Assembly (NCBI GenBank): GCA_050247235.1
Contig: JBFWUN010000003.1
Coordinates: 13,171 to 77,170, forward strand
DNA: 64,000 nt
From: Gammaproteobacteria bacterium
Lineage (GTDB): Bacteria; Pseudomonadota; Gammaproteobacteria; Ga0077536
Direction: 5' to 3'
Part shown: positions 39,322 to 60,786 of the stretch, piece by piece
How the letters are laid out: every line of letters begins with the position of its first letter
Position numbering within the stretch: position 1 is the stretch's first letter
Notes under the pieces: model-generated
Told to the model about the DNA's origin: nothing
The model's input: the letters and a program-made list of their open reading frames with translations, nothing else
Database searches by the model: none
Made by a program: the position numbers and the translations under genes

Positions 39322-39475
39322 CCACCTTGCGCATCTGCTTCACCCGTAGAGATTCGCGCGCCGTCGGAGGTGTAGTATCCGGTGCCGTGTGCGCGGACAT
39401 TCCGTCGCGCAATACGTCGACTGCGGAACGTTCGGAAGGTGAATGGTGCGTGACGGCTGGGGAAAACGCACCGCT

Positions 39476-39994
39476 ATGAAGCATCAAGCCGCGTGGACGT
39501 TGGTCCAATCCAAACCACGTCAGGAACGGGTTGCACTCGAAAACCTGCTTCGCCAGGGTTACGAGGCCTATCTGCCGCTCATTCGCACCGCGGATCGAAG
39601 TATCCCGCGCCGCACGGGCGTTTCGCCCGCGTTTCCTCGCTACCTGTTTGTGAACCTTCGGCCCGAGGTCGACGCGTTCGCGCCGATTCGATCCACGTCC
39701 GGAGTATCGTCGCTCGTGCGATTCGGCAACCAGTACGCTACCGTCGCGGACGATCTGATCCGGAATCTGAAGGCGCGCTCCGATCCTGACGGCGTCTATG
39801 ATTTGGCGCTGAAACCGCTGAAACCGCTGAAACCCGGAGACCGCGTGCGCGTGATGTCGGGGCCGCTTGCGGAGTACGAGTGCATTGTTGCGGCCCCTAG
39901 TGGTCGCGAGCGAGTGGAACTGTTGCTCCAATTCGTAGCCCGCGAAGTTAAGGTTAGCGTGCCGCTAGCGGCTGTCCGCTATATCGGTATCTGA
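39476..39994 (+). CDS. rfaH: RfaH-type NusG-paralog transcription antiterminator
   Basis: 172 aa. Aligns block by block with E. coli RfaH: WTLVQSKPRQERVALENLLRQGYEAYLPLI ~ WYLLYCKRGQLQRAQEHLERQAVNCLAPMI, PAFPRYLFVNLRPEV ~ PLFPNYLFVEFDPEV, and the KOW region PGDRVRVMSGPLAEY. Confidence 0.85.
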   Translation: MKHQAAWTLVQSKPRQERVALENLLRQGYEAYLPLIRTADRSIPRRTGVSPAFPRYLFVNLRPEVDAFAPIRSTSGVSSLVRFGNQYATVADDLIRNLKARSDPDGVYDLALKPLKPLKPGDRVRVMSGPLAEYECIVAAPSGRERVELLLQFVAREVKVSVPLAAVRYIGI

Positions 39995-40078
39995 CCGTAG
40001 ACTGCGGTTCGCGCACGTTCGCGTGCAGCAGCCGCATCTAACATAACCGCTAGCGCTGGTCTTCGACGAGACCGGTAC

Positions 40079-40090
40079 GGCGGTAGCGTG
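40079..40090 (+). promoter_or_regulatory. ops element (operon polarity suppressor), exact GGCGGTAGCGTG, in the 5' leader of the polysaccharide island operon
   Basis: Exact 12-mer match to the canonical ops sequence. Lies 85 nt downstream of rfaH and ~50 nt upstream of the first island gene. Confidence 0.7.
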
Positions 40091-40139
40091 CCCTATCGGC
40101 CGCGGCGTGGCGTCAAATTCTCAAACCGCGAAGACCTAA

Positions 40140-41057
40140 ATGGGAAGGATAGTAGTGAGCGGAGGCAGCATCCCTCGGTGCAAAGATTGTGGCGGTCAGT
40201 CGTTCATTTCCGTTACGACCTATAAGCGACTGTGGAAGATTTGTCGGGGTTGCGGCGCCGGCTTCCCGGAACAGCGGGCCAAGTACCCGTTCCGTTGGCT
40301 TTCTTTTCCGGACGTGAAGAAGCAGGACTATCTAGACGAAGCAAAAATGTATGACTACTTCACAACCGATATCCACATCAAACTTGCCATCGACGAAGCG
40401 CAGGAGTTCCATCAACGATTCATGATCGCCAAAAGGTTGGATCTAACCGGTAGAAGCTTGCTCGATATCTCCGGCGGAAATGGTCATTTCGCAAAATGGT
40501 ACGCCGACACCTTCTCCATGCCGACATCTTTTACAGAAATAAACCAGCCCGCGCTCGACTACGCACGAACGCATCATCAATTTGATGCTGTCGCCCATTA
40601 TGATCTCAATAAAGATGACCTCCGCGAAACAATGGGCCGGACTTTCGATGTTGTCATGGCAAGGGCTTGCATAATGTTTTGCGATGATCTCGTCGGTTTC
40701 GCGAACCAACTTCGTAGGGCGATCAATCCGGGTGGCTTGGTGATCGTGGATCGTTCAACCGAACCAACACTTGGCACTCTCGTCCGCGTTCAGTTAGATG
40801 AATTCAGCTATCACGTTCTCAGGCAGCCCGACGCAGTCGAGAGGGTATTTGAAGTCGCGGGCTTTCAGCTGGAAGCGCGACATGACGAAACCGATCCCAG
40901 CCTATACGTCTACGATCACGATCTACTACCCCACTGGTCTTTCTTGCACTACCTATATGAAATCATCGGCTTGCGACAGCTGCGAGGCGAACGGATTTTC
41001 CATCTTCCCGCCCGTGACCGAAGGCGAACGACATTTTTTTTCCGTGCCCCGGCGTAG
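40140..41057 (+). CDS. SAM-dependent methyltransferase with N-terminal zinc ribbon
   Basis: CKDCGG...CRGCG zinc ribbon. LLDISGGNGHFA motif I. Confidence 0.75.
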   Translation: MGRIVVSGGSIPRCKDCGGQSFISVTTYKRLWKICRGCGAGFPEQRAKYPFRWLSFPDVKKQDYLDEAKMYDYFTTDIHIKLAIDEAQEFHQRFMIAKRLDLTGRSLLDISGGNGHFAKWYADTFSMPTSFTEINQPALDYARTHHQFDAVAHYDLNKDDLRETMGRTFDVVMARACIMFCDDLVGFANQLRRAINPGGLVIVDRSTEPTLGTLVRVQLDEFSYHVLRQPDAVERVFEVAGFQLEARHDETDPSLYVYDHDLLPHWSFLHYLYEIIGLRQLRGERIFHLPARDRRRTTFFFRAPA

Positions 41058-41101
41058 CTCTCTATCGAAGTCGCCGCGTTGCGGCGAGAACAAAATACCG
41101 A

Positions 41102-41938
41102 ATGAGACCTGTGGAATGGAGAGATAAAGTGCCCGCAAATGAACTGATGCTGGATCCGGAATCTATCAACTACGACGTGTATCCTCGCGATTTTCGGGCT
41201 GTCGCGGACGGAAAGCTCGTCATCTTCGGAATTCCTAAGTGCGGCAATACGTGGGTGCAGTCGCTACTTTGCAAATACTTCGGCGTTGAACCAGTTCTGA
41301 CGATCGAAGAATTTACTAGCAGTGGAGTCCTTTCAATACACGATCCATACGAACCATACATGCGCGAACGACCGGACTTTGTCAGTGGCTTCTGTCTGAT
41401 TCGAGATATTCGAGACATGATTGTCTCCTACTTTCATTACTCGAATACGGACCAGTGGAGACACTCCATGACTCGTCATTACTACGATGACTTCGATTCT
41501 TTCTACTATGAATGGTTTATTTCTCGTTGTGTTCCGTCCCATCGCCTTCATACGTTTGCAAGCGAATTCGCTGAACGAGGAGTTCCAATCGTGCGCTACG
41601 AGCGACTAAACGCGAATCCCCGGTTCGAGTTCGCCCGGCTACTAAAGCGGCTCGGACATGAGGTCGACCACGAAAGGCTGCGTCTAGTAATAGAGGAACA
41701 CCGCTTGGAGAATCTTAAAAGAAATGGCGTTTACATCCGCTACCGCGTGGAGCAAACGCATTTCAGAAAGGGTGGGTGGGGTAACTTCCTGGACGAAATG
41801 CCTCCGCACATCTTGGCCGATGCGAACGAGCGGTTTGGTTCGTATTTGAAGCGGTGGGGATATCCTATCGAACTATCTGAAGAGAGCATAAACACATATC
41901 GCCAACAACTCGAAGACTTGGCTCGGTTGCAAGCGTAA
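41102..41938 (+). CDS. Sulfotransferase-family protein (PAPS-dependent)
   Basis: 5'-PSB-like PKCGNTW and 3'-PB-like IRDIRD motifs. 278 aa. Confidence 0.75.
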   Translation: MRPVEWRDKVPANELMLDPESINYDVYPRDFRAVADGKLVIFGIPKCGNTWVQSLLCKYFGVEPVLTIEEFTSSGVLSIHDPYEPYMRERPDFVSGFCLIRDIRDMIVSYFHYSNTDQWRHSMTRHYYDDFDSFYYEWFISRCVPSHRLHTFASEFAERGVPIVRYERLNANPRFEFARLLKRLGHEVDHERLRLVIEEHRLENLKRNGVYIRYRVEQTHFRKGGWGNFLDEMPPHILADANERFGSYLKRWGYPIELSEESINTYRQQLEDLARLQA

Positions 41939-42203: not shown

Positions 42204-43073
42204 TTGCGGCGCAGGCCGTTTACGAAAGCACACCACGTTTACATGAGTAGTACAGAACCAGCAGCCAACCGAACCGATGCGCCCCAACCAGGTTTCGGTC
42301 GTATTTTGTGGGTTCAGCATAGGCTGTTTTGGCGTCTTGTCTGGCAAGATATACGCACGACTTATGCGGGCACGATGCTCGGGATCGGCTGGGTCATCTT
42401 CGGACCGCTGTTGCTGCTGCTGCTATACGCCATCATCTACGCGGTGATTTTTCGCGTACGAATCCCGAATTTCACGATCGAGGAATACATCGTCAACGTA
42501 TTTTCCGGTTTGGTGCCATTTCTCGCCTTCGCCCAGGGTCTAGGGGCCTCTACGAACGCCATTCAACGGGGCAAAGGACTGCTGTCAAATCCCGCATTCC
42601 CAGTGGACCTGGTTCCCCTGAAACCCGTGGCTGGTGCGTATGTAATTCTGCCGGTCGGTTTCGCGTTTACTTTTATCGGCGATCTGATCTTCTCCAAAGT
42701 CACATGGACCTGGTCGTTCGTTCCTTTGGTTATGCTATTTCAGATGATGCTGTCTATGGGCATCGGCTACATTCTGTCGGTTATCAGTTTGGTTGTACGT
42801 GACTTACAGTTCTTGGTTCAGTACATCGTTATCGCGTTGCTTGTAGTAACTCCTATTGCATATACACCAAACATGATTCCTCAGGGGTTAATGTCTTTAC
42901 TCTATTTGAATCCTCTTTTCTACTCGGTGTACAGCTACCAGAATCTCGTACTACTGAACACGCTGCCTCCACCGCATATCATTTGTATAGGATCAATTAC
43001 TTCGTTAACCATATTTTGGGCGGGCCGTTGCTTCTATCGCCGCACGCGGGGGGCTATTGGAGACTTTCTGTGA
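42204..43073 (+). CDS. wzm: ABC-2 type polysaccharide exporter permease (Wzm/KpsM-like)
   Basis: Six predicted TM helices, ABC-2 family. TTG start; alternative ATG at 42243. Confidence 0.85.
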   Translation: MRRRPFTKAHHVYMSSTEPAANRTDAPQPGFGRILWVQHRLFWRLVWQDIRTTYAGTMLGIGWVIFGPLLLLLLYAIIYAVIFRVRIPNFTIEEYIVNVFSGLVPFLAFAQGLGASTNAIQRGKGLLSNPAFPVDLVPLKPVAGAYVILPVGFAFTFIGDLIFSKVTWTWSFVPLVMLFQMMLSMGIGYILSVISLVVRDLQFLVQYIVIALLVVTPIAYTPNMIPQGLMSLLYLNPLFYSVYSYQNLVLLNTLPPPHIICIGSITSLTIFWAGRCFYRRTRGAIGDFL

Positions 43074-44434
43074 CCTCGGATGCAGAGGAAACGGATGGCG
43101 ACTCGGCGTATGCGGTCCGTTGCAGGGATGTTTCTAAGAGCTATCCCCTCATCGATGATGCCTTCTCCGGGCTAAGTTATTTGGTTCGATATGCTCTCGG
43201 CGAGACGAATAGCGCCGAGCGGGTCAATCATGTGAAGGCGCTACGATCAATTGACCTCGACATCAAACGTGGGGAAAGAGTGGGTCTGATTGGCCGCAAC
43301 GGTTCCGGCAAAACGACCTTTCTTAAACTGTTGAGCGGACAGTTGCCGCCTACGTCCGGCGAGTTGAGAGTCAACGGCGGCATGTATTACTTAGGAGCCG
43401 GTACGATCGGACTCGACCCCGAACTGACGGGTCGACAGGGAATTTCCGCGTTTCTCGTCGAGCGTGGAACCCCCTCAAACGCGCTACCGGAAATTCTGGA
43501 GGAATTGGAATCATTTCTCGAACTGCACGAGTACTTTGACCAGCCTATAAAGCACTATTCTCTCGGGATGCGCGCACGTACGGAATTTGCCGCAGCTACG
43601 GCGATCACCGCTGACATCATACTTGTCGACGAGATTCTTGGTGCGGGCGACATGTTCTGGGCGGAGAAGTGCTCTCGCAGAATGGAGCGGCTATGTGCGC
43701 AGGGCCGCACGATGCTCATCGTCTCTCATTCGCTGGGGCAAATACTGCGCTTCTGCGATCGCGCAGTTTGGATAGACGTTGGAAGGATTGTAATGGACGG
43801 ACCTGTGCAAACGGTGGTTCGCCGCTACGAAGCCTTTCTCGAAAATCTGAGCTGGAAAACGGCAGATTTGGACGATAAGGCGTTCGATGCCGCGAGTCTT
43901 GCGCACGAGCTTACCGACGTGCAACTTCCACGAAGTAATGTTTCCGTGATGCGGTGGCCGGCGCGAGGTGATGTCCTCATCGAGGGAATCTGGATAAACG
44001 ATTCGTCCAATACGTCCGTGACGAGCGCCGCTGGTATGCCAGTGCGCATTCGAATCGCGCTGGAATGCATCCGGGGTGGACAATATGCGTTGCGATATCT
44101 CATCACATTTTGGACCCTTAATGGGAAACGTGTAGGAATTGTTGAGAACGAAGTTGATAGGGTGGTTTTGAAGTCGACAGAGAAACACGAAGTCGAGGTT
44201 ACGATAGGCGGGGGGAATATCGGCCCTGGTATTTACGCTGTAACGGTTTCGCTTTTCCAGGTAAGCGAAGCGGGGAGCAGTGCGAACGAGTACGACGCCC
44301 GCCAAGATATGATTTACAAATCATACACGCTTCTCATCGAACATCAGGCCAGCACCAATGACTGGCGTCCGCCTGCCATTCACACTGTCTCAATTGCGAC
44401 AAAGAGTGACGCCGAGGCAGATGCGACCGTCTGA
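43070..44434 (+). CDS. wzt: ABC transporter ATP-binding protein Wzt-like, with a C-terminal extension (putative glycan-terminus-binding domain)
   Basis: GTG start overlapping the wzm stop (GTGA). Walker A GRNGSGKT, signature YSLGMRAR, Walker B IILVDE. ~200-aa C-terminal beta-rich extension. Confidence 0.85.
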   Translation: MTSDAEETDGDSAYAVRCRDVSKSYPLIDDAFSGLSYLVRYALGETNSAERVNHVKALRSIDLDIKRGERVGLIGRNGSGKTTFLKLLSGQLPPTSGELRVNGGMYYLGAGTIGLDPELTGRQGISAFLVERGTPSNALPEILEELESFLELHEYFDQPIKHYSLGMRARTEFAAATAITADIILVDEILGAGDMFWAEKCSRRMERLCAQGRTMLIVSHSLGQILRFCDRAVWIDVGRIVMDGPVQTVVRRYEAFLENLSWKTADLDDKAFDAASLAHELTDVQLPRSNVSVMRWPARGDVLIEGIWINDSSNTSVTSAAGMPVRIRIALECIRGGQYALRYLITFWTLNGKRVGIVENEVDRVVLKSTEKHEVEVTIGGGNIGPGIYAVTVSLFQVSEAGSSANEYDARQDMIYKSYTLLIEHQASTNDWRPPAIHTVSIATKSDAEADATV

Positions 44435-44595
44435 TGTGAGACTAGGATTTATAGGTCGAATCCAATTTTTGGAAGACCAAAGCGGCCCGCAACATGTCTG
44501 GCGATATCGCTACGTGTGAGACTCTCCGAATTATCGATCGGTGATGAAGTCGAGTGCGTTTCGCCGTCGCGGCGAATCGGGCAGGTAAGTGAAGC

Positions 44596-49432: not shown

Positions 49433-49441
49433 GCTTGCGCT

Positions 49442-52597: not shown

Positions 52598-52759
52598 CGA
52601 AAGACGCCGCGCGAGAACCAATGGAGATAGTCCGCGATGTCTTGCAGGCGATCACTACGGGTCTTGCGCTCCTGTACTATGTTTCCGCGTTTCCGCTGGG
52701 CCAGATTCTGTTCGTGTACCAACAATACTGACGGCTTCGGCCCTGAGAGTTCGAACGCG

Positions 52760-54963: not shown

Positions 54964-55199
54964 ACGTAGATTCGAGGTTGATCGACCAGCTCTGCGCGCT
55001 GTTCGGCGAACAGTATCGCGGCGAGATATCACTGCAAACCACCATGGACGACATCCCCGAATGGGATTCGCTTTCATTCGTCGACGTCGTCTGTGCCCTG
55101 GAGACCACTTTCAACGTGACCGTCGGTCCGAATGACGCTGCGAACATGACCAGCGTCGGCGCCATTCAGGAATTTCTGCGCAACGCGGGCGCGCTCTGA
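54960..55199 (+). CDS. Acyl/aminoacyl carrier protein (phosphopantetheine-binding, DltC/ACP-like)
   Basis: 79 aa. DIPEWDSLSFVDVVCALETTF matches the ACP DSL phosphopantetheine-attachment motif. ATGA-coupled to the upstream gene. Confidence 0.8.
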   Translation: MNVDSRLIDQLCALFGEQYRGEISLQTTMDDIPEWDSLSFVDVVCALETTFNVTVGPNDAANMTSVGAIQEFLRNAGAL

Positions 55200-55253: not shown

Positions 55254-56132
55254 ATGAGAGCGGATTGCTCAATCTTCTTCGGCACCGGTGCCGGTCGCTG
55301 TGGCACGATGGCGCTGGCCAATCTCCTGAATGCGGAACCGGACGTGCTTTGCTGTCATGAAGGTCAGATACGTCATTTGGAGCAGATTGGTGACCAACAT
55401 CTGCCGTATATGACGCTCGAGAATTTCCAGGCCTACCGCCATCCAGAGCGTGCCAAAGCAACTTTCGCGGCCAAGCGTCGCGAGATGCGCGCGCTCGGTG
55501 CGCACTTGAATCTGCGCGCGATCGGCGACATCGCCTACAACAACGCGCCTTTCGTCCACGTGATCCCTAGTCTGTTTCCGGATGCGCGTCTGGTGGTGCT
55601 TACGAGGGACGGCCGGGACTTCGTGCGATCGGCCTACACGCGCCAGCGACCCGATCCGACGCCCGTAGGATGGCTTGACGAGAATACCGAACTCTCCCGT
55701 ATCGAACGTTTCGTCGCGCTGGGAAGATTGCGGCCGCTGGATTCCGAGGCGCCGAATTCCGAGTGGCGGCGAATGTCTGTGGTCGCTAAGAACGCCTGGC
55801 TATGGGCAGAGACCTATCGGCTAATCCTGGATGGACTCGTCGCTTGGGATGAGAATCGCGTGCAATTCGTGCGCCTCGAGGACTTCCGCACCTCTCCACG
55901 TGAACAGTATGGGCATGTTCGCCGATTTCTGGGGCTCGATGACGCGCCGTTGCCACCGGCCGTGGAAATGCTGCTCGTGCAACCGATCAATCGGCGCGAC
56001 GAGTCCGCAAAAGTCCTTCCCGACTGGCGTGCATGGACTGCCCCGGAAACAGAGGATTTCTGGCGGTACGCCGGCCCGATGATGGGACGTCTTGGCTATG
56101 CGAAGGACGATGAAGCAAGTGTTACGGCATGA
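55254..56132 (+). CDS. Sulfotransferase-family protein (second copy)
   Basis: FFGTGAGRCGTMALANLL (P-loop-like 5'-PSB) and VLTRDGRDFVRS (3'-PB RDxRD). Confidence 0.65.
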   Translation: MRADCSIFFGTGAGRCGTMALANLLNAEPDVLCCHEGQIRHLEQIGDQHLPYMTLENFQAYRHPERAKATFAAKRREMRALGAHLNLRAIGDIAYNNAPFVHVIPSLFPDARLVVLTRDGRDFVRSAYTRQRPDPTPVGWLDENTELSRIERFVALGRLRPLDSEAPNSEWRRMSVVAKNAWLWAETYRLILDGLVAWDENRVQFVRLEDFRTSPREQYGHVRRFLGLDDAPLPPAVEMLLVQPINRRDESAKVLPDWRAWTAPETEDFWRYAGPMMGRLGYAKDDEASVTA

Positions 56133-58063
56133 AGCAGCGGTTCCAAACGAGTGCCTCGCCCCGAGCAGTAGCCAGTGTTTGCGCGTTGCTCGTCGTGATG
56201 GCTGCGATTACGAACCTCTCCGGTTCCGTTCTGGAACGGCGTCCGCAAGCCGAGGGACTGGAGAATCGCGGCCAGGCGACCCCAACCGGAACGGTGAGTC
56301 GCGGATGCGATTTCGACCGCCTGGAAATCGACCTAAGCGTCAACGGGACCAACCCCCTGCGGTCCGGCCCGAACATGGTCGCCGCGGCGTTGGCGGGCGG
56401 GCGAGACCCGCGAACCGTGACGGCCGCTGAATTGGGCCATGACCCGCAGTTCATCGTGGGTTATCCGAGCAAGCTCTCGTTCTTGCAAGGCGAACCCGTT
56501 CGCATCCGGTATGCCGGTGGCGAGTGGCGGCGGGGCACCTCGCTCGCGTCTTATACGATCGTCGATGCGCTTGAGGGAAAGCTCATCAAGACGATCGACG
56601 TCGCGCGGCGCGACCACCCGCTACGTTTCAGCGGGTGCGTAGCTTATTACAATGGAGGATGTCGGTTTCGACAGCAACTCTCGTTGGGCTCGCTGGCGGC
56701 CGGGGTTTACTATGTGTTCCTGACCGATGATACGGGCGCGGATAGTTATCCGATTTTCTTCATTGTTCGCCCTGCGAAACAGGAGCGTCACGTGATCGTG
56801 GTATTTCCCGAGTACACGTGGCAGGCCTACAATCGGTTCGGGGGAGGGTCGCTCTATTCGATCCATGTACCAGACGAGAGTGGCCGACTCCACAACAACG
56901 AGTTCTCCACTACTCGCCTCTACTCAGCATCTCTCGACCGCCCGATACTGTTCGATCCGTCTGGGACGCGGTGCAACTGGAATCCGCACTCCGCGCGGCG
57001 CCTCTTCGAGTCTAATCCATCCATTCGGTTCGATATTCGCCTCGACCTCACCCGAGTGCGTAAGCCAGCCCAAACATCGCTTCCTCTAAGGCGAATGGAG
57101 GTGTGTCGATCGAGAGATCCCGTACATTGGATGCAAGAACTATATAACGGACCGGAAGGAACGTTGCCATTTCTCCGTGAGTTGACGCGTAATGGCGTCT
57201 CCGTGTCAGCGATCTCCGAGCATGACCTTACGACCGATAGGCAGATATTGGACGGTGTCCGGATCGTGGTATTGACAGGCCACCACGAGTACTGGACCAC
57301 GGCAGAGTATGAAGCGTTGAGCGAGTTTGTGCGCAGCGGGGGATCTATTGCAAATTTCGCGGGGAACGTTGATGCCGGACGGGTGAACGTCGATCGCCGC
57401 AATCTATACTTTGATCAAATTGGCGGTAAGCGTCCCGAGGGATGCCGGCATCTCGTGCCGCGTCAGTTTGACGGCACGGGAGTCGTTGGGGTCCACGTTT
57501 TCCCCGGATCGGAAAAATTGCTGGGAATCGCCTACAGGTTCGCCGGCTATCCTCTGCGCGAGTACTTCTACTTCCATGGCGACGAAGACGAGATGCGCCG
57601 TGCAGGCCTGTCCGATATCCAAAGGTTGGAGACCACGGGTGTTCGTATCGTCGCGCCCGGACATCCGGTGTTCGCGGGAACGGGATTGAAGAACGGGCAA
57701 CGCTGGGGCACAGATTCGCCTATTCTGTCGGTCGAGCTTGACGGGGCACCGCTCCTGCCCGACGGTCGTCTGGACCGCCGATTCTCCGCGGACTTTCCGG
57801 TTGAACTAACGGTGCTGGCCACTGGGAGCACCTTCGCCTCCAATGTGGTGAGGAGCCCGACAGATGTAGAACTCAAGTACTACGGTGCGAAGAACCCGGC
57901 AATCTTCGTTGATTCCAGGCCGTCCGGCGCGCCCCACGGCGGCCGCGTCGTCAGCTTCGGTTCAATCTCCTTTGGCACCATGCTTGCTCTCGGTGACCGA
58001 ACGGCCAGACGCGTATTCCTGAATACACTTCGCTACCTGGACGAGCAAAGTCGCTACCAGTAA
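56129..58063 (+). CDS. Secreted hypothetical protein, possible N,N-dimethylformamidase-beta/ThuA-like C-terminal domain
   Basis: Signal peptide (AVASVCALLVVMAAITNLSG). 644 aa. VVLTGHHEYWT motif. Function unknown. Confidence 0.5.
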   Translation: MKQRFQTSASPRAVASVCALLVVMAAITNLSGSVLERRPQAEGLENRGQATPTGTVSRGCDFDRLEIDLSVNGTNPLRSGPNMVAAALAGGRDPRTVTAAELGHDPQFIVGYPSKLSFLQGEPVRIRYAGGEWRRGTSLASYTIVDALEGKLIKTIDVARRDHPLRFSGCVAYYNGGCRFRQQLSLGSLAAGVYYVFLTDDTGADSYPIFFIVRPAKQERHVIVVFPEYTWQAYNRFGGGSLYSIHVPDESGRLHNNEFSTTRLYSASLDRPILFDPSGTRCNWNPHSARRLFESNPSIRFDIRLDLTRVRKPAQTSLPLRRMEVCRSRDPVHWMQELYNGPEGTLPFLRELTRNGVSVSAISEHDLTTDRQILDGVRIVVLTGHHEYWTTAEYEALSEFVRSGGSIANFAGNVDAGRVNVDRRNLYFDQIGGKRPEGCRHLVPRQFDGTGVVGVHVFPGSEKLLGIAYRFAGYPLREYFYFHGDEDEMRRAGLSDIQRLETTGVRIVAPGHPVFAGTGLKNGQRWGTDSPILSVELDGAPLLPDGRLDRRFSADFPVELTVLATGSTFASNVVRSPTDVELKYYGAKNPAIFVDSRPSGAPHGGRVVSFGSISFGTMLALGDRTARRVFLNTLRYLDEQSRYQ

Positions 58064-58092
58064 AAGCACATGCAATATCGGAATCCCCCAAC

Positions 58093-58716
58093 ATGATCGC
58101 AGTCATCGACGTAGGACTCGGCAACCCGCGTTCGGTACAGAACATGATCCGAAAGGCGGGAGGCGAAGCGGTGATCACCCGCGTACCCAGCGAGATTCGG
58201 GCTGCCGAAAAGCTCGTGCTGCCCGGCGTCGGACACTTCGCGCATGGAATGGAATCTCTGCATCGCCACGGGCTGGTCGAGGAACTCACTCGCTTTGCAC
58301 TGGATCTGGGAAGGCCGGTCCTTGGAATCTGTCTGGGTGCGCAGTTGTTGGGATTCGGCAGTGAGGAAGGGCCTGGAGTGGGCGGCCTGGGATGGTTGCC
58401 GTTGCATTGCCGGCGATTTCCCTCTCTTCCCGGGCTGCGCATTCCGCAGATGGGATGGAACGAGATCGAGATCGTTCGCGAGAACGCTCTCCTGCGCGAG
58501 GCCCTCCCCGAACGTCGATTCTACTTCGTACATTCGTACTACATGGAATGCGACGACCCGGAAATCGTGGTTGCGCGAGCTCACTACGGCTTGGATTACG
58601 CCTGTGTCGTGCATCGCGGAAACATCTACGGTACGCAGTTCCACCCCGAAAAATCCCATAAGTTCGGCCTGGCGTTGATGAAGGCGTTTGTCGAACTACC
58701 GTCTTCGCAGATGTAG
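58093..58716 (+). CDS. HisH-like glutamine amidotransferase (O-antigen paralog, WbuY/HisH2-like)
   Basis: GICLGAQLL (catalytic Cys) and YGTQFHPEKS (His/Glu). Confidence 0.9.
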   Translation: MIAVIDVGLGNPRSVQNMIRKAGGEAVITRVPSEIRAAEKLVLPGVGHFAHGMESLHRHGLVEELTRFALDLGRPVLGICLGAQLLGFGSEEGPGVGGLGWLPLHCRRFPSLPGLRIPQMGWNEIEIVRENALLREALPERRFYFVHSYYMECDDPEIVVARAHYGLDYACVVHRGNIYGTQFHPEKSHKFGLALMKAFVELPSSQM

Positions 58717-58729
58717 GGCGCATATCATC

Positions 58730-59491
58730 ATGATGAAGACGAGAGTGATCCCGGTGCTGCTCCTGCAAGGGCAGGGTCTTGTCAAGACCGTCCGGTTCAA
58801 GGATCCGACGTACATTGGGGACCCGATCAATTCGATTAGGATTTTCAACGAGAAGGAAGTCGATGAACTCGTGTTTCTCGACATATCCGCGACCGCCGAA
58901 GGCAGGGAGCCCAACTATCAGATCATTGAAGATATCGCGGGCGAGGCATTCATGCCGCTCGCCTATGGAGGAGGTGTCGGCAACCTGGAGCAGGCGCAGA
59001 GGATATTCGCCCTCGGATTCGAGAAAATAGTGCTGAGCGCCGCGACCTACGACAACGAACGCCTCATCACCGAACTCGTCGGCCGCTACGGCAGTTCATC
59101 GGTCGTGGCGTGCGTAGACTGCAAAAGGAACCTTTTCGGCCGCCACGAGCTGTTCACGCACAACGGAAAGGTTCGCCGGAAGCGGAAGCTGGTGGAACAC
59201 GTGAAGAGACTGGCAGAGTTGGGTGTGGGCGAGATCATCGTGAACAGCATAGACCGTGACGGCACTCAACGGGGCTATGACATCGAGCTTATCGCCTCGG
59301 TCGCGGGTGCCGTGGCGGTTCCGGTGGTTGCCTGCGGAGGCGCCTCCGGCGTCGAGGATTTCGAGCACGCGGTGTCGCAAGGCGGCGCGTCGGCGGTGGC
59401 GGCTGGCAGTCTGTTCGTCTTCAAGGGGCCGCATCGGGCGGTGCTCATCAACTACCCGGATCGCGGTGAACTGACGCGTGTCCTCCCGTGA
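58730..59491 (+). CDS. HisF-like cyclase (O-antigen paralog, WbuZ/HisF2-like)
   Basis: RVIPVLLLQ N-terminus and TIM-barrel HisF motifs (VACGGASGVEDF). Confidence 0.9.
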   Translation: MMKTRVIPVLLLQGQGLVKTVRFKDPTYIGDPINSIRIFNEKEVDELVFLDISATAEGREPNYQIIEDIAGEAFMPLAYGGGVGNLEQAQRIFALGFEKIVLSAATYDNERLITELVGRYGSSSVVACVDCKRNLFGRHELFTHNGKVRRKRKLVEHVKRLAELGVGEIIVNSIDRDGTQRGYDIELIASVAGAVAVPVVACGGASGVEDFEHAVSQGGASAVAAGSLFVFKGPHRAVLINYPDRGELTRVLP

Positions 59492-59550
59492 GGGCCGGGT
59501 GTCGAGCGTCACGCGCCGTAAATTTCCAACTACCCAGAGGTTGCAGAACA

Positions 59551-60741
59551 GTGAATATCATAGAAAAGGCGTGGATGCCGGACGGCAGGGAACGGCCTTA
59601 CAGGATGTGCACCCGATGTGTCATGGACACTACCGATCCCCTCATCGAGTTCGACGAAAAGGGGGTCTGCAATCATTGCCATTACTTCGAGAACAACGTT
59701 AAGCCGAATTGGTTTCCGGACGATGAGGGCGCGGTCCGGCTTCAGAAAATGCTCGAGGAGGTCAAGGCTTATGGAAGAAATCGACGTTACGACTGTATCG
59801 TGGGTGTGTCAGGCGGCGTAGACAGTTCCTACCTGACGGCGAAGATAGTCGAGTGGGGGTTGAGACCCCTGATGGTGCACGTCGACGCGGGCTGGAACTC
59901 GGAGCTCGCTGTCAAGAATATCGAGACCCTGATCAACAGGCTCGGCCTCGATCTCGTCACGCATGTCGTGAACTGGGAGGAAATGAAGGATCTGCAGCTC
60001 GCGTTCTTGCGTTCCAATCTAGCGAATCAGGACGTGCCGCAGGATCACGCCTTCTTTGCGGCGCTCTACAACTACGCTGTGAAAGAAAAGGTCAAGTACG
60101 TCATCAGCGGGAGCAACTACGCGACCGAGAGCATCCTGCCGCAAGCCTGGGGTTACGATGCCATGGACGTAAAGCACCTGGAGGCGATTCACGATCGATT
60201 CGGCAAGCGCCCGTTGAAGACGTTCCCGCGCGTCAGCTTTTTCAATTTCTATATTTACTATCCCCGCGTCCTCGAGATGAAGGTTCTTACTCCGCTCAAC
60301 TATATGCCATATAGCAAGGCCGAGGCGATCAAGACGCTGGAGCGCGACTATGGCTGGCGTTATTACGGCGGGAAACACTACGAGTCACGATGGACTAGGT
60401 TCTTCCAGGCGCATTACCTGCCCATCAAGTTCGGCTACGACAAGCGCAAAGCACACCTGTCCAGCCTCGTCGTGGCAGGCGAGATATCCAGAGAGGATGC
60501 GATCGTCGAACTGCAGGCGCCGCTTTACGACGATCGCGATCTCGCGGAGGACAAGTTGTTCATATCGAAGAAGCTCGGAATCACCGTGGCTGAACTGGAT
60601 GCGCTGATCGCCGCCCCTCCGCGGCACTATTCCGAGTTTCCGAACAACGAGGCGCGCAAGTTGCAGGCAATGGAAACGTTGCAGAAATACCGGAAGGTAT
60701 CCGCCAGGGCGTTTGCGCTGTTGCGCCGATTTGCGGGGTGA
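59551..60741 (+). CDS. wbpG: N-acetyl sugar amidotransferase (WbpG/PseA/WbuX-like PP-loop enzyme)
   Basis: N-terminal zinc ribbon CTRCVMD...CNHC. PP-loop VGVSGGVDSSY. Probable GTG start at 59551 (ATG alternative at 59578). Confidence 0.85.
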   Translation: MNIIEKAWMPDGRERPYRMCTRCVMDTTDPLIEFDEKGVCNHCHYFENNVKPNWFPDDEGAVRLQKMLEEVKAYGRNRRYDCIVGVSGGVDSSYLTAKIVEWGLRPLMVHVDAGWNSELAVKNIETLINRLGLDLVTHVVNWEEMKDLQLAFLRSNLANQDVPQDHAFFAALYNYAVKEKVKYVISGSNYATESILPQAWGYDAMDVKHLEAIHDRFGKRPLKTFPRVSFFNFYIYYPRVLEMKVLTPLNYMPYSKAEAIKTLERDYGWRYYGGKHYESRWTRFFQAHYLPIKFGYDKRKAHLSSLVVAGEISREDAIVELQAPLYDDRDLAEDKLFISKKLGITVAELDALIAAPPRHYSEFPNNEARKLQAMETLQKYRKVSARAFALLRRFAG

Positions 60742-60786
60742 GAAACGGGTGCGGCCAAAGCCGCGGGCGATGCGCGGAGCGCGATC

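What the first reader, a model, noticed from the sequence alone, without database searches (positions are those of the whole stretch)
39330..60750. Mosaic lower-GC island encoding a probably sulfated, ABC-exported glycan
A ~21-kb stretch of ~50-57% GC sits between native ~69% GC wbpBDE and GT genes. It contains Wzm/Wzt export (no Wzx/Wzy seen in the window), two distinct sulfotransferase-family genes, a Zn-ribbon methyltransferase, an AsnB amidotransferase, an acetamidino module, an MBOAT and the aminoacylation module. Sulfotransferases are unusual in O-antigen loci. In ABC-dependent pathways, terminal modification (methyl/phosphate) controls chain length and is read by the Wzt C-terminal domain. 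A sulfate or methyl terminator is plausible here.
Basis: partly seen in the sequence, partly recalled or inferred. Interest (0 to 1): 0.6.

Follow-up and report, generated by a model that had tools for sequence, protein, structure and literature searches.

The report
Sulfated-glycan export island with paired Wzt
A foreign 24-kb block in a surface-polysaccharide locus of an uncultured gammaproteobacterium encodes a probably sulfated, methylated and aminoacylated acidic sugar polymer, exported by an unusual ABC transporter with two different, co-inherited ATPase subunits.

Summary
The low-GC stretch is real, but it runs from about 39.4 to 63.2 kb, not to 60.75 kb. Third-codon-position GC is 0.87 in native genes, 0.58 in block A (40.1-46.0 kb) and 0.71 in block B (46.0-63.2 kb).

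Both sulfotransferase calls pass Pfam thresholds and carry PAPS-binding motifs. Relatives with the same left flank (MarR-wbpBDE) carry other downstream genes. This is therefore the variable part of an RfaH/ops-type polysaccharide locus, not a mobile element.

The gene set is not a random mosaic. Nearly all of it recurs, rearranged and at 26-66% protein identity, in a 45%-GC metagenome contig.

- There are two Wzt ATPases. They belong to old paralogue lineages (38% identical to each other, about 50% within a lineage). They occur together in 11 loci and co-diversify. Each has a different, weakly Wzt_C-like C-terminal domain.
- The methyltransferase and sulfotransferase 1 sit inside the wzm/wzt block in several loci.
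- A complete Dlt-like aminoacylation set is present, including a DltX-like microprotein, with a seryl-tRNA-synthetase-like ligase in place of DltA.

A sulfate or methyl chain-end cap is plausible but not shown. I rate this a new variant of a known kind.

The parts
36546..39321 (+). wbpB (36546-37610), wbpD (37615-38196) and wbpE (38221-39321). These are native-composition genes for a UDP-2,3-diacetamido-2,3-dideoxy-hexuronic acid precursor and form the conserved 5' frame of the locus.
   Evidence: Pfam gives GFO_IDH_MocA, Hexapep and DegT_DnrJ_EryC1. GC3 is 0.91-0.96. The MarR-wbpBDE frame is conserved at 77-88% in related MAGs L005-L007, L010 and L011.
39476..39994 (+). RfaH-like (NusG-family) transcription antiterminator. 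It is the first gene with non-native composition.
   Evidence: Pfam NusG 4.6e-16. NCBIfam RfaH TIGR01955 scores 133.7 bits, just under its 144.5 cut-off. GC3 is 0.67.
40079..40089 (+). ops-like element GGCGGTAGCGT in the 160-nt leader between the RfaH-like gene and the methyltransferase gene.
   Evidence: It is the only match in the window. By count alone it is weak, because 22 of 100 shuffles also give at least one match. The same 8-mer lies in the wbpB leader of L021, L029, L030 and L049.
40155..41057 (+). SAM-dependent methyltransferase with an N-terminal Cys4 zinc ribbon. It is a candidate O-methyl cap enzyme.
   Evidence: Methyltransf_23/12/11. CxxC...CxxC is invariant in 5 orthologues at 48-74% identity, from Roseicyclus (L002), L091, L100 and L107. 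It always lies next to Wzt1-type genes.
41129..41938 (+). Sulfotransferase 1, of the cytosolic-SULT type.
   Evidence: PF00685 scores 65.7 bits. The family has only 44 clusters among 5.8 billion proteins. PKxGNxW, His71, RDxRDxxxS and RKGG are invariant or nearly so in 30 homologues. The PDB best hits are human SULT1C2 and SULT1A1.
42243..43073 (+). Wzm, the ABC-2 permease. It is the only one in the window.
   Evidence: PF01061 scores 28.3 bits against a cut-off of 26.9. It is 50-62% identical to Wzm of L002 to L004, L091, L093 and L107.
43070..44434 (+). Wzt1, an ABC ATPase with a Wzt_C-like C-terminal domain containing an RWP motif.
   Evidence: ABC_tran 6.9e-19; NCBIfam Wzt/TagH families. 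The C-terminal domain hits Wzt_C at E 0.0023, and its orthologues hit at 5e-4, 0.012 and 2e-6. Walker A, Walker B, signature and H-loop are intact.
44596..45972 (+). Wzt2, a paralogous ABC ATPase with a different C-terminal domain (TNYSDPPxxHCxGxW ... RxSAWV at the C-terminus).
   Evidence: It is 43% identical to Wzt1, in the ATPase domain only. Its C-terminal family has 16 representatives among 1.84 billion proteins. hhalign against the Wzt1 C-terminal family gives probability 92.8%, E 3.9e-7. Four of 12 members weakly hit Wzt_C. It co-occurs and co-diversifies with Wzt1.
46008..47900 (+). AsnB-type glutamine amidotransferase, a candidate for forming uronamide.
   Evidence: Asn_synthase 2.1e-70 plus GATase_7. 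An AsnB gene follows the Wzt2-type gene directly in 15 of 16 loci where the downstream sequence is in view.
48017..50617 (+). A GT4 glycosyltransferase (48017-49432) and a GT4-like protein (49442-50617).
   Evidence: Glyco_trans_1_4 / Glycos_transf_1 for the first; weak Glyco_transf_4 for the second. The first has a 55% orthologue in L004.
50614..51378 (+). Membrane-anchored protein of unknown function (254 aa, one N-terminal transmembrane segment, conserved PFFFSD motif).
   Evidence: No Pfam or NCBIfam hit. A 26%-identical orthologue of the same length sits at the same position before the MBOAT gene in L004.
51404..52597 (+). DltB-type MBOAT acyltransferase, without a fused C-terminal acyl-shuttle motif.
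   Evidence: PF03062 5.4e-17. The best NCBIfam match is DltB TIGR04091 at 5.3e-38 over profile positions 35-374 of 380, below the cut-off. The WRRWHMSL histidine motif is visible in the sequence.
52594..52731 (+). DltX-like membrane microprotein (45 aa) ending in FVYQQY. It overlaps the MBOAT stop codon by 4 nt.
   Evidence: It is conserved with a 47-aa ORF in L004 (...ALLYYLADFPLGRIVFVYQKY). The FXYXXF acyl-shuttle motif of DltX is described in PMC12148441.
52760..53947 (+). Amino acid:[carrier protein] ligase, a class II seryl-tRNA-synthetase homologue.
   Evidence: NCBIfam NF005479 7.9e-40, below cut-off. PDB 3MEY/4H2W, Bradyrhizobium Bll0957 'amino acid--[acyl-carrier-protein] ligase 1', at about 1e-26.
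53944..54963 (+). DltD-like membrane-anchored protein (one transmembrane segment, GSSR and DPTH motifs). It is the candidate final transferase.
   Evidence: No profile hit. It is 49% identical to the L004 orthologue, with both motifs conserved. The assignment rests on motif and position only.
54960..55199 (+). Acyl/peptidyl carrier protein (79 aa) with a DSLS phosphopantetheine-attachment motif.
   Evidence: NCBIfam acyl carrier protein models at 7e-7 and weaker, all below cut-off. It is 56% identical to the L004 orthologue.
55254..56132 (+). Sulfotransferase 2, of the Sulfotransfer_3 / TPST-like type.
   Evidence: PF13469 42.9 bits and PF00685 31.1 bits. GAGRCGT (5'-phosphosulfate loop) and RDGRDFVRS (3'-phosphate motif) are visible. 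It is 55% identical to the L004 orthologue.
56129..58063 (+). Membrane-anchored or periplasmic DMFA2_C-family protein (class-I amidotransferase-like fold). It is a candidate post-export amidase.
   Evidence: PF20254 1.3e-36. An N-terminal hydrophobic anchor is visible. Orthologues exist in L004 and L101. Only marginal PDB hits were found.
58093..60741 (+). Acetamidino module: HisH (58093-58716), HisF2 (58688-59491) and a WbuX/WbpG-type N-acetyl-sugar amidotransferase (ORF 59488-60741, likely start near 59605).
   Evidence: TIGR01855 scores 213.9 (cut-off 105.4). NF038364, 'AglZ/HisF2 family acetamidino modification protein', scores 359 (cut-off 310). TIGR03573 WbuX scores 301.8 (cut-off 203.2).
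60787..63172 (+). Two GT4 glycosyltransferases (60787-62007, and 61976?-63172). They are the last genes with island composition.
   Evidence: Glyco_trans_1_4 3e-21 and 1.3e-33. GC3 is 0.73 and 0.71.
63215..64000 (+). Second AsnB-like amidotransferase with native composition. It marks the right edge and runs off the window.
   Evidence: It starts MCGITGF, has GC3 0.87, and is 44% identical to AsnB1. Relatives at 59% lie in L008/L009 downstream of wbpE.

Best explanation
Window 39.4-63.2 kb is the horizontally acquired, strain-variable part of an RfaH/ops-controlled cell-surface polysaccharide locus. [quoted passage not shown]

**Cytoplasmic steps (inferred from gene content).**
1. WbpB/D/E make a 2,3-diacetamido-hexuronic acid nucleotide sugar.
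2. HisH/HisF2/WbuX turn an acetamido group into an acetamidino group.
3. AsnB amidates the carboxylate.
4. Four GT4 enzymes build the chain on undecaprenyl phosphate.
5. Two PAPS-dependent sulfotransferases and a zinc-ribbon methyltransferase decorate the chain.

**Export (architecture shown, mechanism inferred).** The methyltransferase and sulfotransferase 1 travel with wzm/wzt, so they most likely modify the non-reducing end. The finished chain is exported through one Wzm permease. That permease is powered by a conserved pair of different ATPases, Wzt1 and Wzt2. Their two distinct Wzt_C-like domains would read the chain end.

**Periplasmic steps (inferred).** A Dlt-like relay esterifies the polymer with a small amino acid. 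The relay runs from the seryl-tRNA-synthetase-like ligase to the carrier protein, then DltB-like MBOAT, then the tyrosine of a DltX-like microprotein, then the DltD-like transferase. A DMFA2_C-family enzyme may then trim amides.
For: **Composition.** Three non-overlapping GC3 classes separate native genes from blocks A and B.

**Variable region.** Relatives share VWA-...-MarR-wbpBDE at 56-90% identity. Downstream they carry AsnB-like plus a single wzm/wzt, with no sulfotransferase.

**Coherent gene set.** L004 carries orthologues of 16 island genes in a different order, at 26-66% identity and 45% GC.

**Sulfation.**
- Both enzymes pass Pfam cut-offs.
- The PAPS-binding and catalytic residues of sulfotransferase 1 are invariant.
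- A related locus, L086, places cysNC/cysD (PAPS synthesis) beside HTH-NusG-wbpBD-wzm-wzt-sulfotransferase-sulfotransferase.

**Cap-type export.**
- Both Wzt proteins have about 190-residue extensions that weakly but consistently match Wzt_C. The two extensions match each other at the profile level.
- Transporters that carry this carbohydrate-binding domain depend on a chain-end cap (PMC9445017).
- The methyltransferase and/or sulfotransferase 1 lie within or beside the wzm/wzt block in the window, Roseicyclus, L004, L086, L091, L100 and L107.

**Paired Wzt.**
- Eleven loci hold both lineages.
- Identity is 50-51% within a lineage and 38% between lineages.
- Pairwise identities of the two lineages correlate across loci (r = 0.81, permutation p about 0.001).

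**Dlt-like relay.**

**Acetamidino module.** It scores above NCBIfam cut-offs.
Against: - No chemistry is available, and the organism is known only as a MAG.
- The Wzt_C matches are all below Pfam's gathering score.
- Single-sequence AlphaFold models of both C-terminal domains are poor (pLDDT 43 and 49). Their Foldseek hits are non-significant generic beta-sandwiches.
- Sulfotransferase 1 relatives at 38% identity occur in a Wzx-type locus (L085). The family is therefore not tied to ABC export or to capping.
- Paired-Wzt loci exist without any sulfotransferase in view (L091, L099, L100, L106).
- wbpA, wbpI, an initiating transferase, waaL and PAPS-synthesis genes are not in the window.
- Heterodimer versus two alternative homodimers cannot be decided from sequence.
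- The DltD-like and unknown-A assignments rest on motifs and gene order only.
- The ops match alone is not significant.
Confidence: 0.6

Rival explanations
1. The glycan is the same, but sulfate is an internal (repeat-unit) decoration. Only O-methylation, or something else, caps the chain. The sulfotransferases merely add negative charge, as in other sulfated bacterial polysaccharides.
For: - Sulfotransferase 1 relatives occur with a second sulfotransferase in a Wzx-flippase locus, where no cap logic applies (L085).
- Paired-Wzt loci keep the methyltransferase orthologue but lack the sulfotransferase (L091, L100).
- In L107 the sulfotransferase 1 gene is a remnant while the rest of the block is intact.
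- The known caps are methyl, methyl-phosphate and Kdo. Sulfate is not among them (PMC9445017).
Against: - In the four closest contexts (42-73% identity) sulfotransferase 1 lies directly against a wzt gene or the methyltransferase.
- If the backbone is a 4-linked 2,3-diacetamido-uronamide polymer, the only free hydroxyl is O4 of the terminal residue. This is an inference from sugar chemistry, and the backbone is unknown.
Confidence: 0.3
2. Wzt1 and Wzt2 do not form one heterodimeric motor. Each forms its own homodimer on the shared Wzm, giving two alternative exporters. These would serve two differently capped chains, or two glycans.
For: - Both proteins keep all the catalytic motifs of a competent ATPase.
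- Carbohydrate-binding domains can work in trans (PMC9445017).
- There is only one wzm gene.
- The two modification enzymes next to the transporter could make two kinds of cap.
Against: - The two lineages co-occur in every locus with enough context, and they co-diversify (r = 0.81). This is expected for obligate partners.
- In the solved homodimeric transporter, the dimer of carbohydrate-binding domains engages only one ATPase subunit and forms a single binding site. That asymmetry could become fixed in a heterodimer.
Confidence: 0.35
3. The product is not an LPS O antigen. It is instead a capsule-like or other lipid-linked glycan, for example a protein glycan or a secondary cell-surface polymer.
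For: No waaL, wzz or lipid A-core genes are in the window. Wzm/Wzt-type exporters also serve S-layer glycans and teichoic acids (the NCBIfam TagH and galactan families are the top hits).
Against: - No KpsE/KpsD/Wza-type outer-membrane export genes are in the window.
- The wbpBDE + hisHF + wbpG + RfaH/ops combination is the pattern of O-antigen loci. This rests on established knowledge of the P. aeruginosa O5 locus and was not tested here.
Confidence: 0.2
4. The GC dip is not due to horizontal transfer. It would reflect gene-specific composition or relaxed selection within a native locus.
For: No integrase, IS element, tRNA or flanking direct repeats were found at the borders.
Against: - The GC3 step is sharp and large (0.87 down to 0.58 and 0.71), and GC3 is largely free of protein constraint.
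- Relatives have different genes at this site.
- In Roseicyclus marinus the methyltransferase-sulfotransferase pair is also a low-GC (45%) cassette, set in about 60% GC DNA between IS elements.
Confidence: 0.05

Closest known systems
Cap-dependent ABC-transporter O-antigen pathway (E. coli O9a/O8 WbdD-Wzm/Wzt; Aquifex aeolicus WzmWzt with a 3-O-methyl cap; PMC9445017)
   Same: It has a Wzm permease plus a Wzt ATPase with a C-terminal extension. Small-group transferases are encoded beside wzm/wzt. No Wzx/Wzy is present. The logic is that a chain-end modification stops growth and licenses export.
   Different: - Two paralogous Wzt subunits with different C-terminal domains replace one homodimeric Wzt.
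- The C-terminal domains only weakly match Wzt_C.
- There is no WbdD-like kinase/coiled-coil protein.
- A sulfotransferase sits where a kinase would be. Sulfate is not a documented cap.
Pseudomonas aeruginosa O5 B-band O-antigen genes (wbpA-E, wbpI, hisH2/hisF2, wbpG); from my own knowledge
   Same: The wbpB/D/E triad and the HisH/HisF2/WbpG acetamidino module are present. This predicts 2,3-diacetamido-uronic acids with an acetamidino group.
   Different: That system is Wzx/Wzy-dependent, whereas export here is by Wzm/Wzt. wbpA and wbpI are not in the window. Sulfation, methylation and aminoacylation genes are added.
Bordetella bronchiseptica wbm O antigen (poly-2,3-diacetamido-galacturonic acid/uronamide; periplasmic WbmE; PMC2615507)
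   Same: Both involve a diacetamido-uronic acid polymer, AsnB-type amidotransferases for uronamide, and a periplasmic enzyme that edits the polymer after assembly.
   Different: Homology of the DMFA2_C protein to WbmE was not tested, so the parallel is functional only. No sulfotransferases are reported there.
Dlt D-alanylation pathway of Gram-positive teichoic acids (DltA, DltB, DltC, DltD, DltX; mechanism summarised in PMC12148441)
   Same: It has a DltB-type MBOAT without a fused shuttle motif, and a separate microprotein ending in F-x-Y-x-x-(F/Y). It also has a carrier protein and a membrane-anchored partner with Ser and Asp-x-x-His motifs.
   Different: - The adenylating enzyme DltA is replaced by a class II seryl-tRNA-synthetase-like amino acid:[carrier protein] ligase.
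- The host is Gram-negative, and the set is embedded in a Wzm/Wzt polysaccharide locus.
- The amino acid and the acceptor are unknown.
Amino acid:[carrier protein] ligases (Bradyrhizobium Bll0957, PDB 3MEY/4H2W)
   Same: The catalytic core matches at about 1e-26, and an adjacent small carrier protein is present.
   Different: Here the ligase has an evident downstream pathway (MBOAT/DltX-like/DltD-like). As far as I know, the physiological role of the characterised members is still unassigned.
Sulfated bacterial glycans with dedicated sulfotransferases (Sinorhizobium LpsS, PMC12445080; cyanobacterial synechan, PMC8205485; marine Vibrio and Cobetia capsules, PMC11641403 and PMC11766843)
   Same: PAPS-type sulfotransferase genes lie inside a polysaccharide locus, and the setting is environmental or marine.
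   Different: Synechan, the case whose paper I list here, uses a Wzx/Wzy-type system; I did not check the others. None of the papers found describes a sulfotransferase embedded in a wzm/wzt block. The sulfotransferase-domain ORF next to wzt in Aeromonas salmonicida remains unexplained (PMC4483657).

Membership tests
ABC-transporter-dependent, cap-reading O-polysaccharide export (Wzm/Wzt with carbohydrate-binding domain) | ABC-2 permease Wzm | tested here: met
   PF01061 scores 28.3 bits against a cut-off of 26.9.
ABC-transporter-dependent, cap-reading O-polysaccharide export (Wzm/Wzt with carbohydrate-binding domain) | Wzt/TagH-type ATPase with intact catalytic motifs | tested here: met
   PF00005 matches both proteins. 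The top NCBIfam families are Wzt/RfbE and TagH. PDB TagH/TarH/Wzt hits reach 1e-46 to 1e-31. The motifs are visible.
ABC-transporter-dependent, cap-reading O-polysaccharide export (Wzm/Wzt with carbohydrate-binding domain) | C-terminal Wzt_C beta-sandwich carbohydrate-binding domain | tested here: inconclusive
   - Wzt_C matches are E 0.0023 for Wzt1 and 0.014 for Wzt2, both below the 30.4-bit cut-off.
- Orthologues reach 5e-4, 2e-6 and 8e-5.
- Profile-profile comparison of the two domains gives 92.8% probability.
- The AlphaFold models are all-beta but low confidence.
- No PDB sequence hit was found.
ABC-transporter-dependent, cap-reading O-polysaccharide export (Wzm/Wzt with carbohydrate-binding domain) | Dedicated terminator enzyme (WbdD-like kinase/methyltransferase or Kdo transferase) | tested here: not met
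   There is no kinase or WbdD-like protein. The methyltransferase gives only generic class-I hits in the PDB. A stand-alone methyltransferase and a sulfotransferase occupy the equivalent position.
ABC-transporter-dependent, cap-reading O-polysaccharide export (Wzm/Wzt with carbohydrate-binding domain) | Homodimeric Wzt | tested here: not met
   Two paralogous wzt genes are conserved as a pair in 11 loci. The stoichiometry itself cannot be tested here.
ABC-transporter-dependent, cap-reading O-polysaccharide export (Wzm/Wzt with carbohydrate-binding domain) | [quoted passage not shown] | not testable with these tools
   This needs NMR or mass spectrometry of the polymer.
PAPS-dependent sulfotransferases (Pfam Sulfotransfer_1 / Sulfotransfer_3) | Profile match above the curated threshold | tested here: met
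   Sulfotransferase 1: PF00685 at 65.7 bits (cut-off 22). Sulfotransferase 2: PF13469 at 42.9 bits (cut-off 27) and PF00685 at 31.1 bits (cut-off 22).
PAPS-dependent sulfotransferases (Pfam Sulfotransfer_1 / Sulfotransfer_3) | 5'-phosphosulfate loop, 3'-phosphate motif and catalytic base | tested here: met
   - Sulfotransferase 1: P36-K37-x-G39-N40-x-W42, H71, R92-D93-x-R95...S100 and R213-x-G215 are invariant or at least 90% conserved in 30 sequences.
- Sulfotransferase 2: GAGRCGT and RDGRDFVRS are visible and align to TPST. Its catalytic base was not identified.
PAPS-dependent sulfotransferases (Pfam Sulfotransfer_1 / Sulfotransfer_3) | PAPS supply (APS kinase) in the genome | not testable with these tools
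   It is not in the window. The related locus L086 has cysNC/cysD adjacent.
Horizontally acquired genomic island | Deviant composition with sharp borders | tested here: met
   GC3 is 0.87 in native genes against 0.58 and 0.71 in the island. The borders lie at about 39.3-39.5 kb and 63.17-63.21 kb.
Horizontally acquired genomic island | Absent from the same site in relatives | tested here: met
   L005-L007, L010 and L011 share the left flank but not the island genes. The nearest relative is only about 80-90% identical in the flank proteins, so the comparison is not between strains.
Horizontally acquired genomic island | Mobility hallmarks (integrase, IS element, tRNA, flanking repeats) | tested here: not met
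   There is no tRNA, no meaningful repeat, and no transposase or integrase domain. This fits the usual homologous-recombination replacement of a polysaccharide-locus variable region.
Dlt-type MBOAT acylation relay | DltB-type MBOAT with catalytic His and no fused shuttle motif | tested here: met
   PF03062 matches. DltB is the best NCBIfam hit over the whole profile, though below cut-off. WRRWHMSL is present and the C-terminus lacks FxYxxF.
Dlt-type MBOAT acylation relay | DltX microprotein with a C-terminal FXYXXF motif | tested here: inconclusive
   A 45-aa ORF ends in FVYQQY, and the L004 orthologue ends in FVYQKY. The last residue is Tyr rather than Phe, and no profile is available.
Dlt-type MBOAT acylation relay | Carrier protein | tested here: inconclusive
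   The 79-aa protein has a DSLS motif. The ACP models hit at 7e-7, below their cut-offs.
Dlt-type MBOAT acylation relay | DltD (SGNH-like) transferase | tested here: inconclusive
   A transmembrane anchor and conserved GSSR and DPTH motifs are present. There is no profile hit.
Dlt-type MBOAT acylation relay | DltA adenylation enzyme | tested here: not met
   It is replaced by a class II aaRS-like ligase.
UDP-2,3-diacetamido-2,3-dideoxy-uronic acid (Wbp) pathway | WbpB oxidase, WbpE aminotransferase, WbpD acetyltransferase | tested here: met
   The domain triad is in the canonical order. The same triad is conserved in dozens of loci.
UDP-2,3-diacetamido-2,3-dideoxy-uronic acid (Wbp) pathway | WbpA dehydrogenase and WbpI 2-epimerase | tested here: not met
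   Neither is found in the 64-kb window. They may lie beyond 64 kb. Roseicyclus has a UDP-sugar dehydrogenase next to its triad.

The most novel reading that the evidence does not exclude
This would be a previously undescribed class of O-antigen ABC exporter. A single Wzm permease works with an obligate Wzt1/Wzt2 heterodimer. The two different carbohydrate-binding domains jointly read a composite chain-end cap. In this island the cap would include a sulfate ester, a cap chemistry not yet documented. The polymer is then aminoacylated in the periplasm by a Dlt-like relay fed by a tRNA-synthetase-like ligase. That would also give the orphan amino acid:[carrier protein] ligases a physiological role.
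Probability: 0.2. Interest if true: 0.8.

Novelty: new variant of a known kind. Interest (0 to 1): 0.6.

Why it matters
Chain-length control and export licensing in ABC-dependent O-antigen synthesis have been worked out on a handful of homodimeric Wzt systems, with methyl, methyl-phosphate or Kdo caps.

**Paired Wzt.** A conserved, co-evolving pair of Wzt paralogues with different recognition domains would extend that model. The solved homodimer already shows functional asymmetry, and a fixed heterodimer would give a natural test of it.

**Sulfate.** A sulfate cap, or simply a sulfated Wzm/Wzt-exported glycan, would add a new chemistry to Gram-negative surface polymers. It could also explain stray sulfotransferase-domain genes next to wzt in other bacteria.

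**Aminoacylation.** The embedded Dlt-like set links tRNA-synthetase-like carrier-protein ligases to a concrete pathway. As far as I know, their cellular purpose has been unclear.

**Testability.** Roseicyclus marinus is named in the records as a species, so it is presumably cultured. It carries the methyltransferase-sulfotransferase cassette, which makes part of this experimentally accessible.

Tried and rejected
- **Word-indexed homologue searches.** Searches with the two Wzt C-terminal domains alone returned nothing, not even the source protein. The exhaustive HMMER search later found the Wzt2 C-terminal family.
- **Structure prediction.** Single-sequence AlphaFold2 of both C-terminal domains gave pLDDT 43 and 49. 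Foldseek against the PDB then gave only generic beta-sandwich hits at E > 1e-3. A. aeolicus Wzt appeared at rank 8 for Wzt1-C, which is not usable as evidence. Alignment-based prediction was barred, because only window sequences or proteins from the word-indexed search may be submitted.
- **PDB searches.** A profile of Wzt1-C orthologues found nothing in the PDB. The DMFA2_C protein gave only a marginal acylase hit. I could not obtain a WbmE sequence to test that analogy.
- **Mobility signatures.** No tRNA and no meaningful direct or inverted repeats were found, and none of the island proteins scanned matched a transposase or integrase family.
- **Promoters and terminators.** The scan gave no more hits than shuffled sequence. 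This is consistent with one long co-directional operon but proves nothing.
- **WbdD-like terminator.** No kinase is present, and the methyltransferase has no WbdD hit.
- **Recent duplication.** I considered that the two Wzt genes were a recent tandem duplication. This is rejected: same-locus identity is 34-41%, against about 50% within each lineage.
- **Random mosaic.** I considered the island a random mosaic of unrelated cassettes. This is rejected as a full account, because L004 carries nearly the whole set.
- **Literature.** Searches for paired or heterodimeric Wzt, and for an aaRS-like ligase with an MBOAT, found nothing relevant. The library is incomplete, so this is not proof of novelty.

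Full report
**Source and observation.**

The window matches, at 100% over 15 kb, contig JBFXJS010000021.1 of assembly GCA_050174655.1. One source labels that assembly 'MAG: Gammaproteobacteria bacterium'.

The composition profile confirms a dip. Flanking 1-kb windows are 0.62-0.76 GC, 40-45 kb is 0.51-0.55, 45-61 kb is 0.57-0.63, and 61-63 kb is 0.63-0.65.

Third-codon-position GC (GC3) is the cleaner measure. Fifteen native genes pool to 0.874 (range 0.85-0.96). Five genes at 40155-45972 (block A) pool to 0.583 (0.54-0.61). Fifteen genes at 46008-63172 (block B) pool to 0.709 (0.66-0.75). The three ranges do not overlap.

The left border is the wbpE stop at 39321. The RfaH-like gene that follows is intermediate, with GC3 0.67. 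The right border is at 63172/63215, not 60750. Native GC3 (0.87) returns only with a second AsnB-like gene that runs off the window.

**Gene content.**

All island genes are on the + strand. In order they are:
1. RfaH-like antiterminator.
2. An ops-like GGCGGTAGCGT in the following leader.
3. Zinc-ribbon SAM methyltransferase.
4. Sulfotransferase 1.
5. Wzm.
6. Wzt1.
7. Wzt2.
8. AsnB.
9. GT4.
10. GT4-like protein.
11. A membrane-anchored protein of unknown function.
12. DltB-type MBOAT.
13. A 45-aa DltX-like microprotein.
14. A seryl-tRNA-synthetase-like amino acid:[carrier protein] ligase.
15. A DltD-like membrane-anchored protein.
16. A carrier protein.
17. Sulfotransferase 2.
18. An anchored DMFA2_C-family protein.
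19. HisH.
20. HisF2.
21. A WbuX/WbpG amidotransferase.
22. Two GT4 enzymes.

No Wzx, Wzy, Wzz or WaaL is present anywhere in the window. The upstream 35 kb is ordinary metabolism.

'Uniform GC' is rejected by the figures above. 'Sulfotransferase calls not supported' is also rejected.
- ORF 41102-41938 scores 65.7 bits on Sulfotransfer_1 (cut-off 22).
- ORF 55254-56132 scores 42.9 bits on Sulfotransfer_3 (cut-off 27) and 31.1 bits on Sulfotransfer_1.

The two proteins show no detectable similarity to each other.

Sulfotransferase 1 belongs to a rare family, with 44 clusters among 5.8 billion proteins. In 30 members the 5'-phosphosulfate loop (PKxGNxW), the catalytic His71, the 3'-phosphate motif (RDxRDxxxS) and RKGG are invariant or nearly so. 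Its best solved relatives are human cytosolic sulfotransferases.

Sulfotransferase 2 shows GAGRCGT and RDGRDFVRS, and it aligns weakly to tyrosylprotein sulfotransferases.

**What kind of island.**

A scan of species-representative genomes with WbpE found related MAGs that share the native left flank. L010 has VWA at 90%, MarR at 68% and WbpB at 88%. L005-L007 and L011 have MarR-wbpBDE at 55-85%. Downstream, these relatives carry an AsnB-like gene and a single wzm/wzt pair. They have no sulfotransferase, no methyltransferase orthologue and no second Wzt.

There is no tRNA, IS element, integrase or flanking repeat. This is the usual picture of the variable middle of a surface-polysaccharide locus replaced by recombination, not a mobile element.

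The two GC3 classes do suggest two histories. In Roseicyclus marinus the methyltransferase-sulfotransferase 1 pair is itself a 45%-GC cassette, set between IS elements in about 60%-GC DNA next to wzm/wzt. It is 73% identical in protein and 68% in DNA over 1.58 kb.

The gene set is nevertheless not an arbitrary mosaic. A 45%-GC metagenome contig (L004) carries orthologues of 16 island genes at 26-66% identity. Their order there is wbpBDE, GT, hisH, hisF, wbpG, GT, wzm, wzt1, sulfotransferase 1, wzt2, asnB, unknown, MBOAT, microprotein, ligase, DltD-like, carrier protein, sulfotransferase 2, DMFA2_C.

Another locus (L086) places the PAPS-synthesis genes cysNC/cysD next to HTH, NusG-like, wbpBD, wzm, wzt, sulfotransferase 1-like and a Sulfotransfer_3 gene. 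Sulfated, Wzm/Wzt-exported diacetamido-uronic-acid glycans therefore appear to be a recurrent, if rare, type.

**The paired Wzt ATPases.**

Wzt1 (454 aa) and Wzt2 (458 aa) are 43% identical over the ATPase domain only. Both keep Walker A, Walker B with the catalytic Glu, the YSLGMRAR signature and the H-loop.

The last ~190 residues of each are unrelated by BLAST. Further evidence on these domains:
- Wzt1's C-terminal domain hits Pfam Wzt_C at E 0.0023. Its orthologues hit at 5e-4 and 0.012, and the single Wzt of L086 hits at 2e-6.
- Wzt2's C-terminal domain defines a small family, with 16 representatives among 1.84 billion proteins. It has a strongly conserved end, TN(Y/F/W)SDPPxxH...W...R(I/V)(S/N/D)AW(V/C).
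- Four of 12 members of that family weakly hit Wzt_C.
- A profile-profile comparison with the Wzt1 C-terminal family gives 92.8% probability and E 3.9e-7 over 141 columns.

Both are therefore probably divergent Wzt-type carbohydrate-binding domains. I could not confirm the fold. The single-sequence models are poor and the fold searches are non-significant.

Using the Wzt2 C-terminal motif, I collected loci from metagenomes and by exact look-up.
- Both lineages occur together in 11 loci: the window, L004, L090, L091, L093, L095, L099, L100, L102, L106 and L107. Their GC ranges from 0.43 to 0.67.
- No locus with enough upstream sequence lacks Wzt1.
- An AsnB gene follows Wzt2 directly in 15 of 16 loci where the downstream sequence is in view.
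- Within-lineage identity is 50-51%. Between-lineage identity is 38%, and 34-41% within the same locus. The split is therefore old.
- Pairwise identities of the two lineages across seven loci correlate (r = 0.81, permutation p about 0.001).

The pair is thus inherited as a unit.

Published work on the homodimeric Aquifex transporter shows that the dimer of carbohydrate-binding domains sits on only one ATPase subunit and forms a single cap-binding site (PMC9445017). A fixed heterodimer would be a natural elaboration of that asymmetry. I regard a Wzt1/Wzt2 heterodimer as somewhat more likely than two alternative homodimers, but sequence cannot decide. I found no paper describing paired Wzt subunits. 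The library is incomplete.

**Is sulfate or methyl the cap?**

Three observations favour a cap role:
- Transporters with this C-terminal domain depend on a chain-end cap.
- The zinc-ribbon methyltransferase orthologue (48-74% identity, Cys4 invariant) and sulfotransferase 1 lie inside or beside the wzm/wzt block in most loci.
- The segment between wzt1 and wzt2 is itself variable. It is empty in the window and L093, holds sulfotransferase 1 in L004, and holds the methyltransferase plus a sulfotransferase 1 remnant in L107. In L091 it holds the methyltransferase plus about 7 kb that encodes a nucleotidyltransferase and a PEP-utilising enzyme. L099, L100 and L106 have a gap of similar size there, whose content I did not annotate. 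That is how a cap-chemistry cassette would be expected to behave.

There is also a chemical argument, which is my inference. A 4-linked polymer of 2,3-diacetamido-uronamides has no free hydroxyl except O4 of the terminal sugar. O-sulfation or O-methylation there would necessarily stop elongation. However, the island has four GT4 genes and the backbone is unknown.

Three observations count against a sulfate cap:
- Sulfate is not among the documented caps.
- A 38%-identical sulfotransferase 1 relative sits in a Wzx-type locus (L085).
- Several paired-Wzt loci have no sulfotransferase.

I put a sulfate-containing cap at roughly 0.2-0.35, and internal sulfation at about 0.3. A sulfotransferase-domain ORF next to wzt in Aeromonas salmonicida was left unexplained by its authors (PMC4483657).

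**The aminoacylation module.**

- The ligase matches Bradyrhizobium Bll0957 amino acid:[carrier protein] ligase (PDB 3MEY/4H2W) at about 1e-26.
- The MBOAT's best NCBIfam match is DltB, across the whole profile.
- The MBOAT lacks the fused C-terminal FxYxxF motif that MBOATs in two other loci (L007, L081) carry as FIYFQF.
- Instead, a 45-aa ORF overlapping the MBOAT stop codon ends in FVYQQY. The L004 orthologue ends in FVYQKY. This matches the DltX 'acyl shuttle' FXYXXF, whose tyrosine carries D-alanine between DltB and DltD. Other MBOAT pathways are said to lack such a microprotein (PMC12148441).
- The next gene encodes a membrane-anchored protein with conserved GSSR and DPTH motifs, which I take to be DltD-like. 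This rests on motif and position only.

This is therefore a Dlt-type relay with a tRNA-synthetase-like ligase in place of DltA. It probably esterifies the exported polymer with a small amino acid.

**Other modules.**

- HisF2 scores 359 bits on the 'acetamidino modification protein' model (cut-off 310).
- The PP-loop protein scores 302 bits on WbuX (cut-off 203).
- AsnB plus an anchored DMFA2_C-family protein recall the amidation and periplasmic deamidation of the Bordetella O chain (PMC2615507). Homology to WbmE was not tested.

**Verdict.**

The 'sulfated, ABC-exported glycan' reading is well supported at the sequence level. The cap reading is plausible but unproven.

The locus belongs to a known kind, the variable region of an ABC-dependent polysaccharide locus. 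It has three uncommon features that together make it a new variant: a conserved pair of Wzt paralogues, sulfotransferase genes tied to the exporter, and a Dlt-like relay fed by an aaRS-like ligase.

Noticed in passing
window 52594-52731 (+): An unannotated 45-aa ORF overlaps the MBOAT stop codon and ends in FVYQQY. It looks like a DltX-type acyl-shuttle microprotein in a Gram-negative polysaccharide locus. An orthologue lies at L004 16330-16473.
   Followed up: partly
window 52760-55199 (+): A seryl-tRNA-synthetase-like amino acid:[carrier protein] ligase and its carrier protein flank a DltD-like gene. This suggests a physiological pathway for this ligase family, which has no assigned role as far as I know.
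   Followed up: partly
window 63215-64000 (+): A second AsnB-like amidotransferase has native GC3 (0.87) and is 44% identical to the island AsnB. The polysaccharide locus therefore continues beyond the window.
   Followed up: partly
L107 3705-4177: The sulfotransferase 1 gene seems to be a remnant. The tblastn hits cover only residues 3-69 and 154-264, so the catalytic His and the 3'-phosphate motif are missing. It lies between an intact methyltransferase and wzt2.
   Followed up: no
L086 1815-4599: cysNC (GTPase plus APS kinase) and cysD-like PAPS-synthesis genes lie directly beside a wzm/wzt locus that carries two sulfotransferases.
   Followed up: no
L002/L003 6862-13640 (Roseicyclus marinus): The methyltransferase-sulfotransferase 1 pair is a 45%-GC cassette bracketed by IS elements (rve, Mu-type transposase/IstB, IS110). 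The surrounding polysaccharide locus is about 60% GC.
   Followed up: partly
L091 3088-10001; probably also L099, L100 and L106 between wzt1 and wzt2: In L091 a ~7-kb insert between the two wzt genes encodes an NTP-transferase, a 1004-aa PEP-utilising enzyme, a class-I amidotransferase and unknowns. L099, L100 and L106 have a gap of similar size whose genes I did not annotate. This could be an alternative chain-end chemistry.
   Followed up: no
window 23316-27377 (-): A 1353-aa ORF has two cNMP-binding domains and a rhodanese domain. It coincides with an extreme AT skew on the + strand (-0.35 to -0.55 over 23-26 kb).
   Followed up: no
L021, L029, L030 (about 8266) and L049 (8174): The ops core GGCGGTAG lies in the leader just upstream of wbpB in several related loci that also encode an RfaH-like protein. 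In the window it instead precedes the first island gene.
   Followed up: partly
window 34314: The public contig of GCA_050174655.1 ends here, inside a transglutaminase-like gene. The 64-kb window therefore comes from a more contiguous assembly of the same organism.
   Followed up: no
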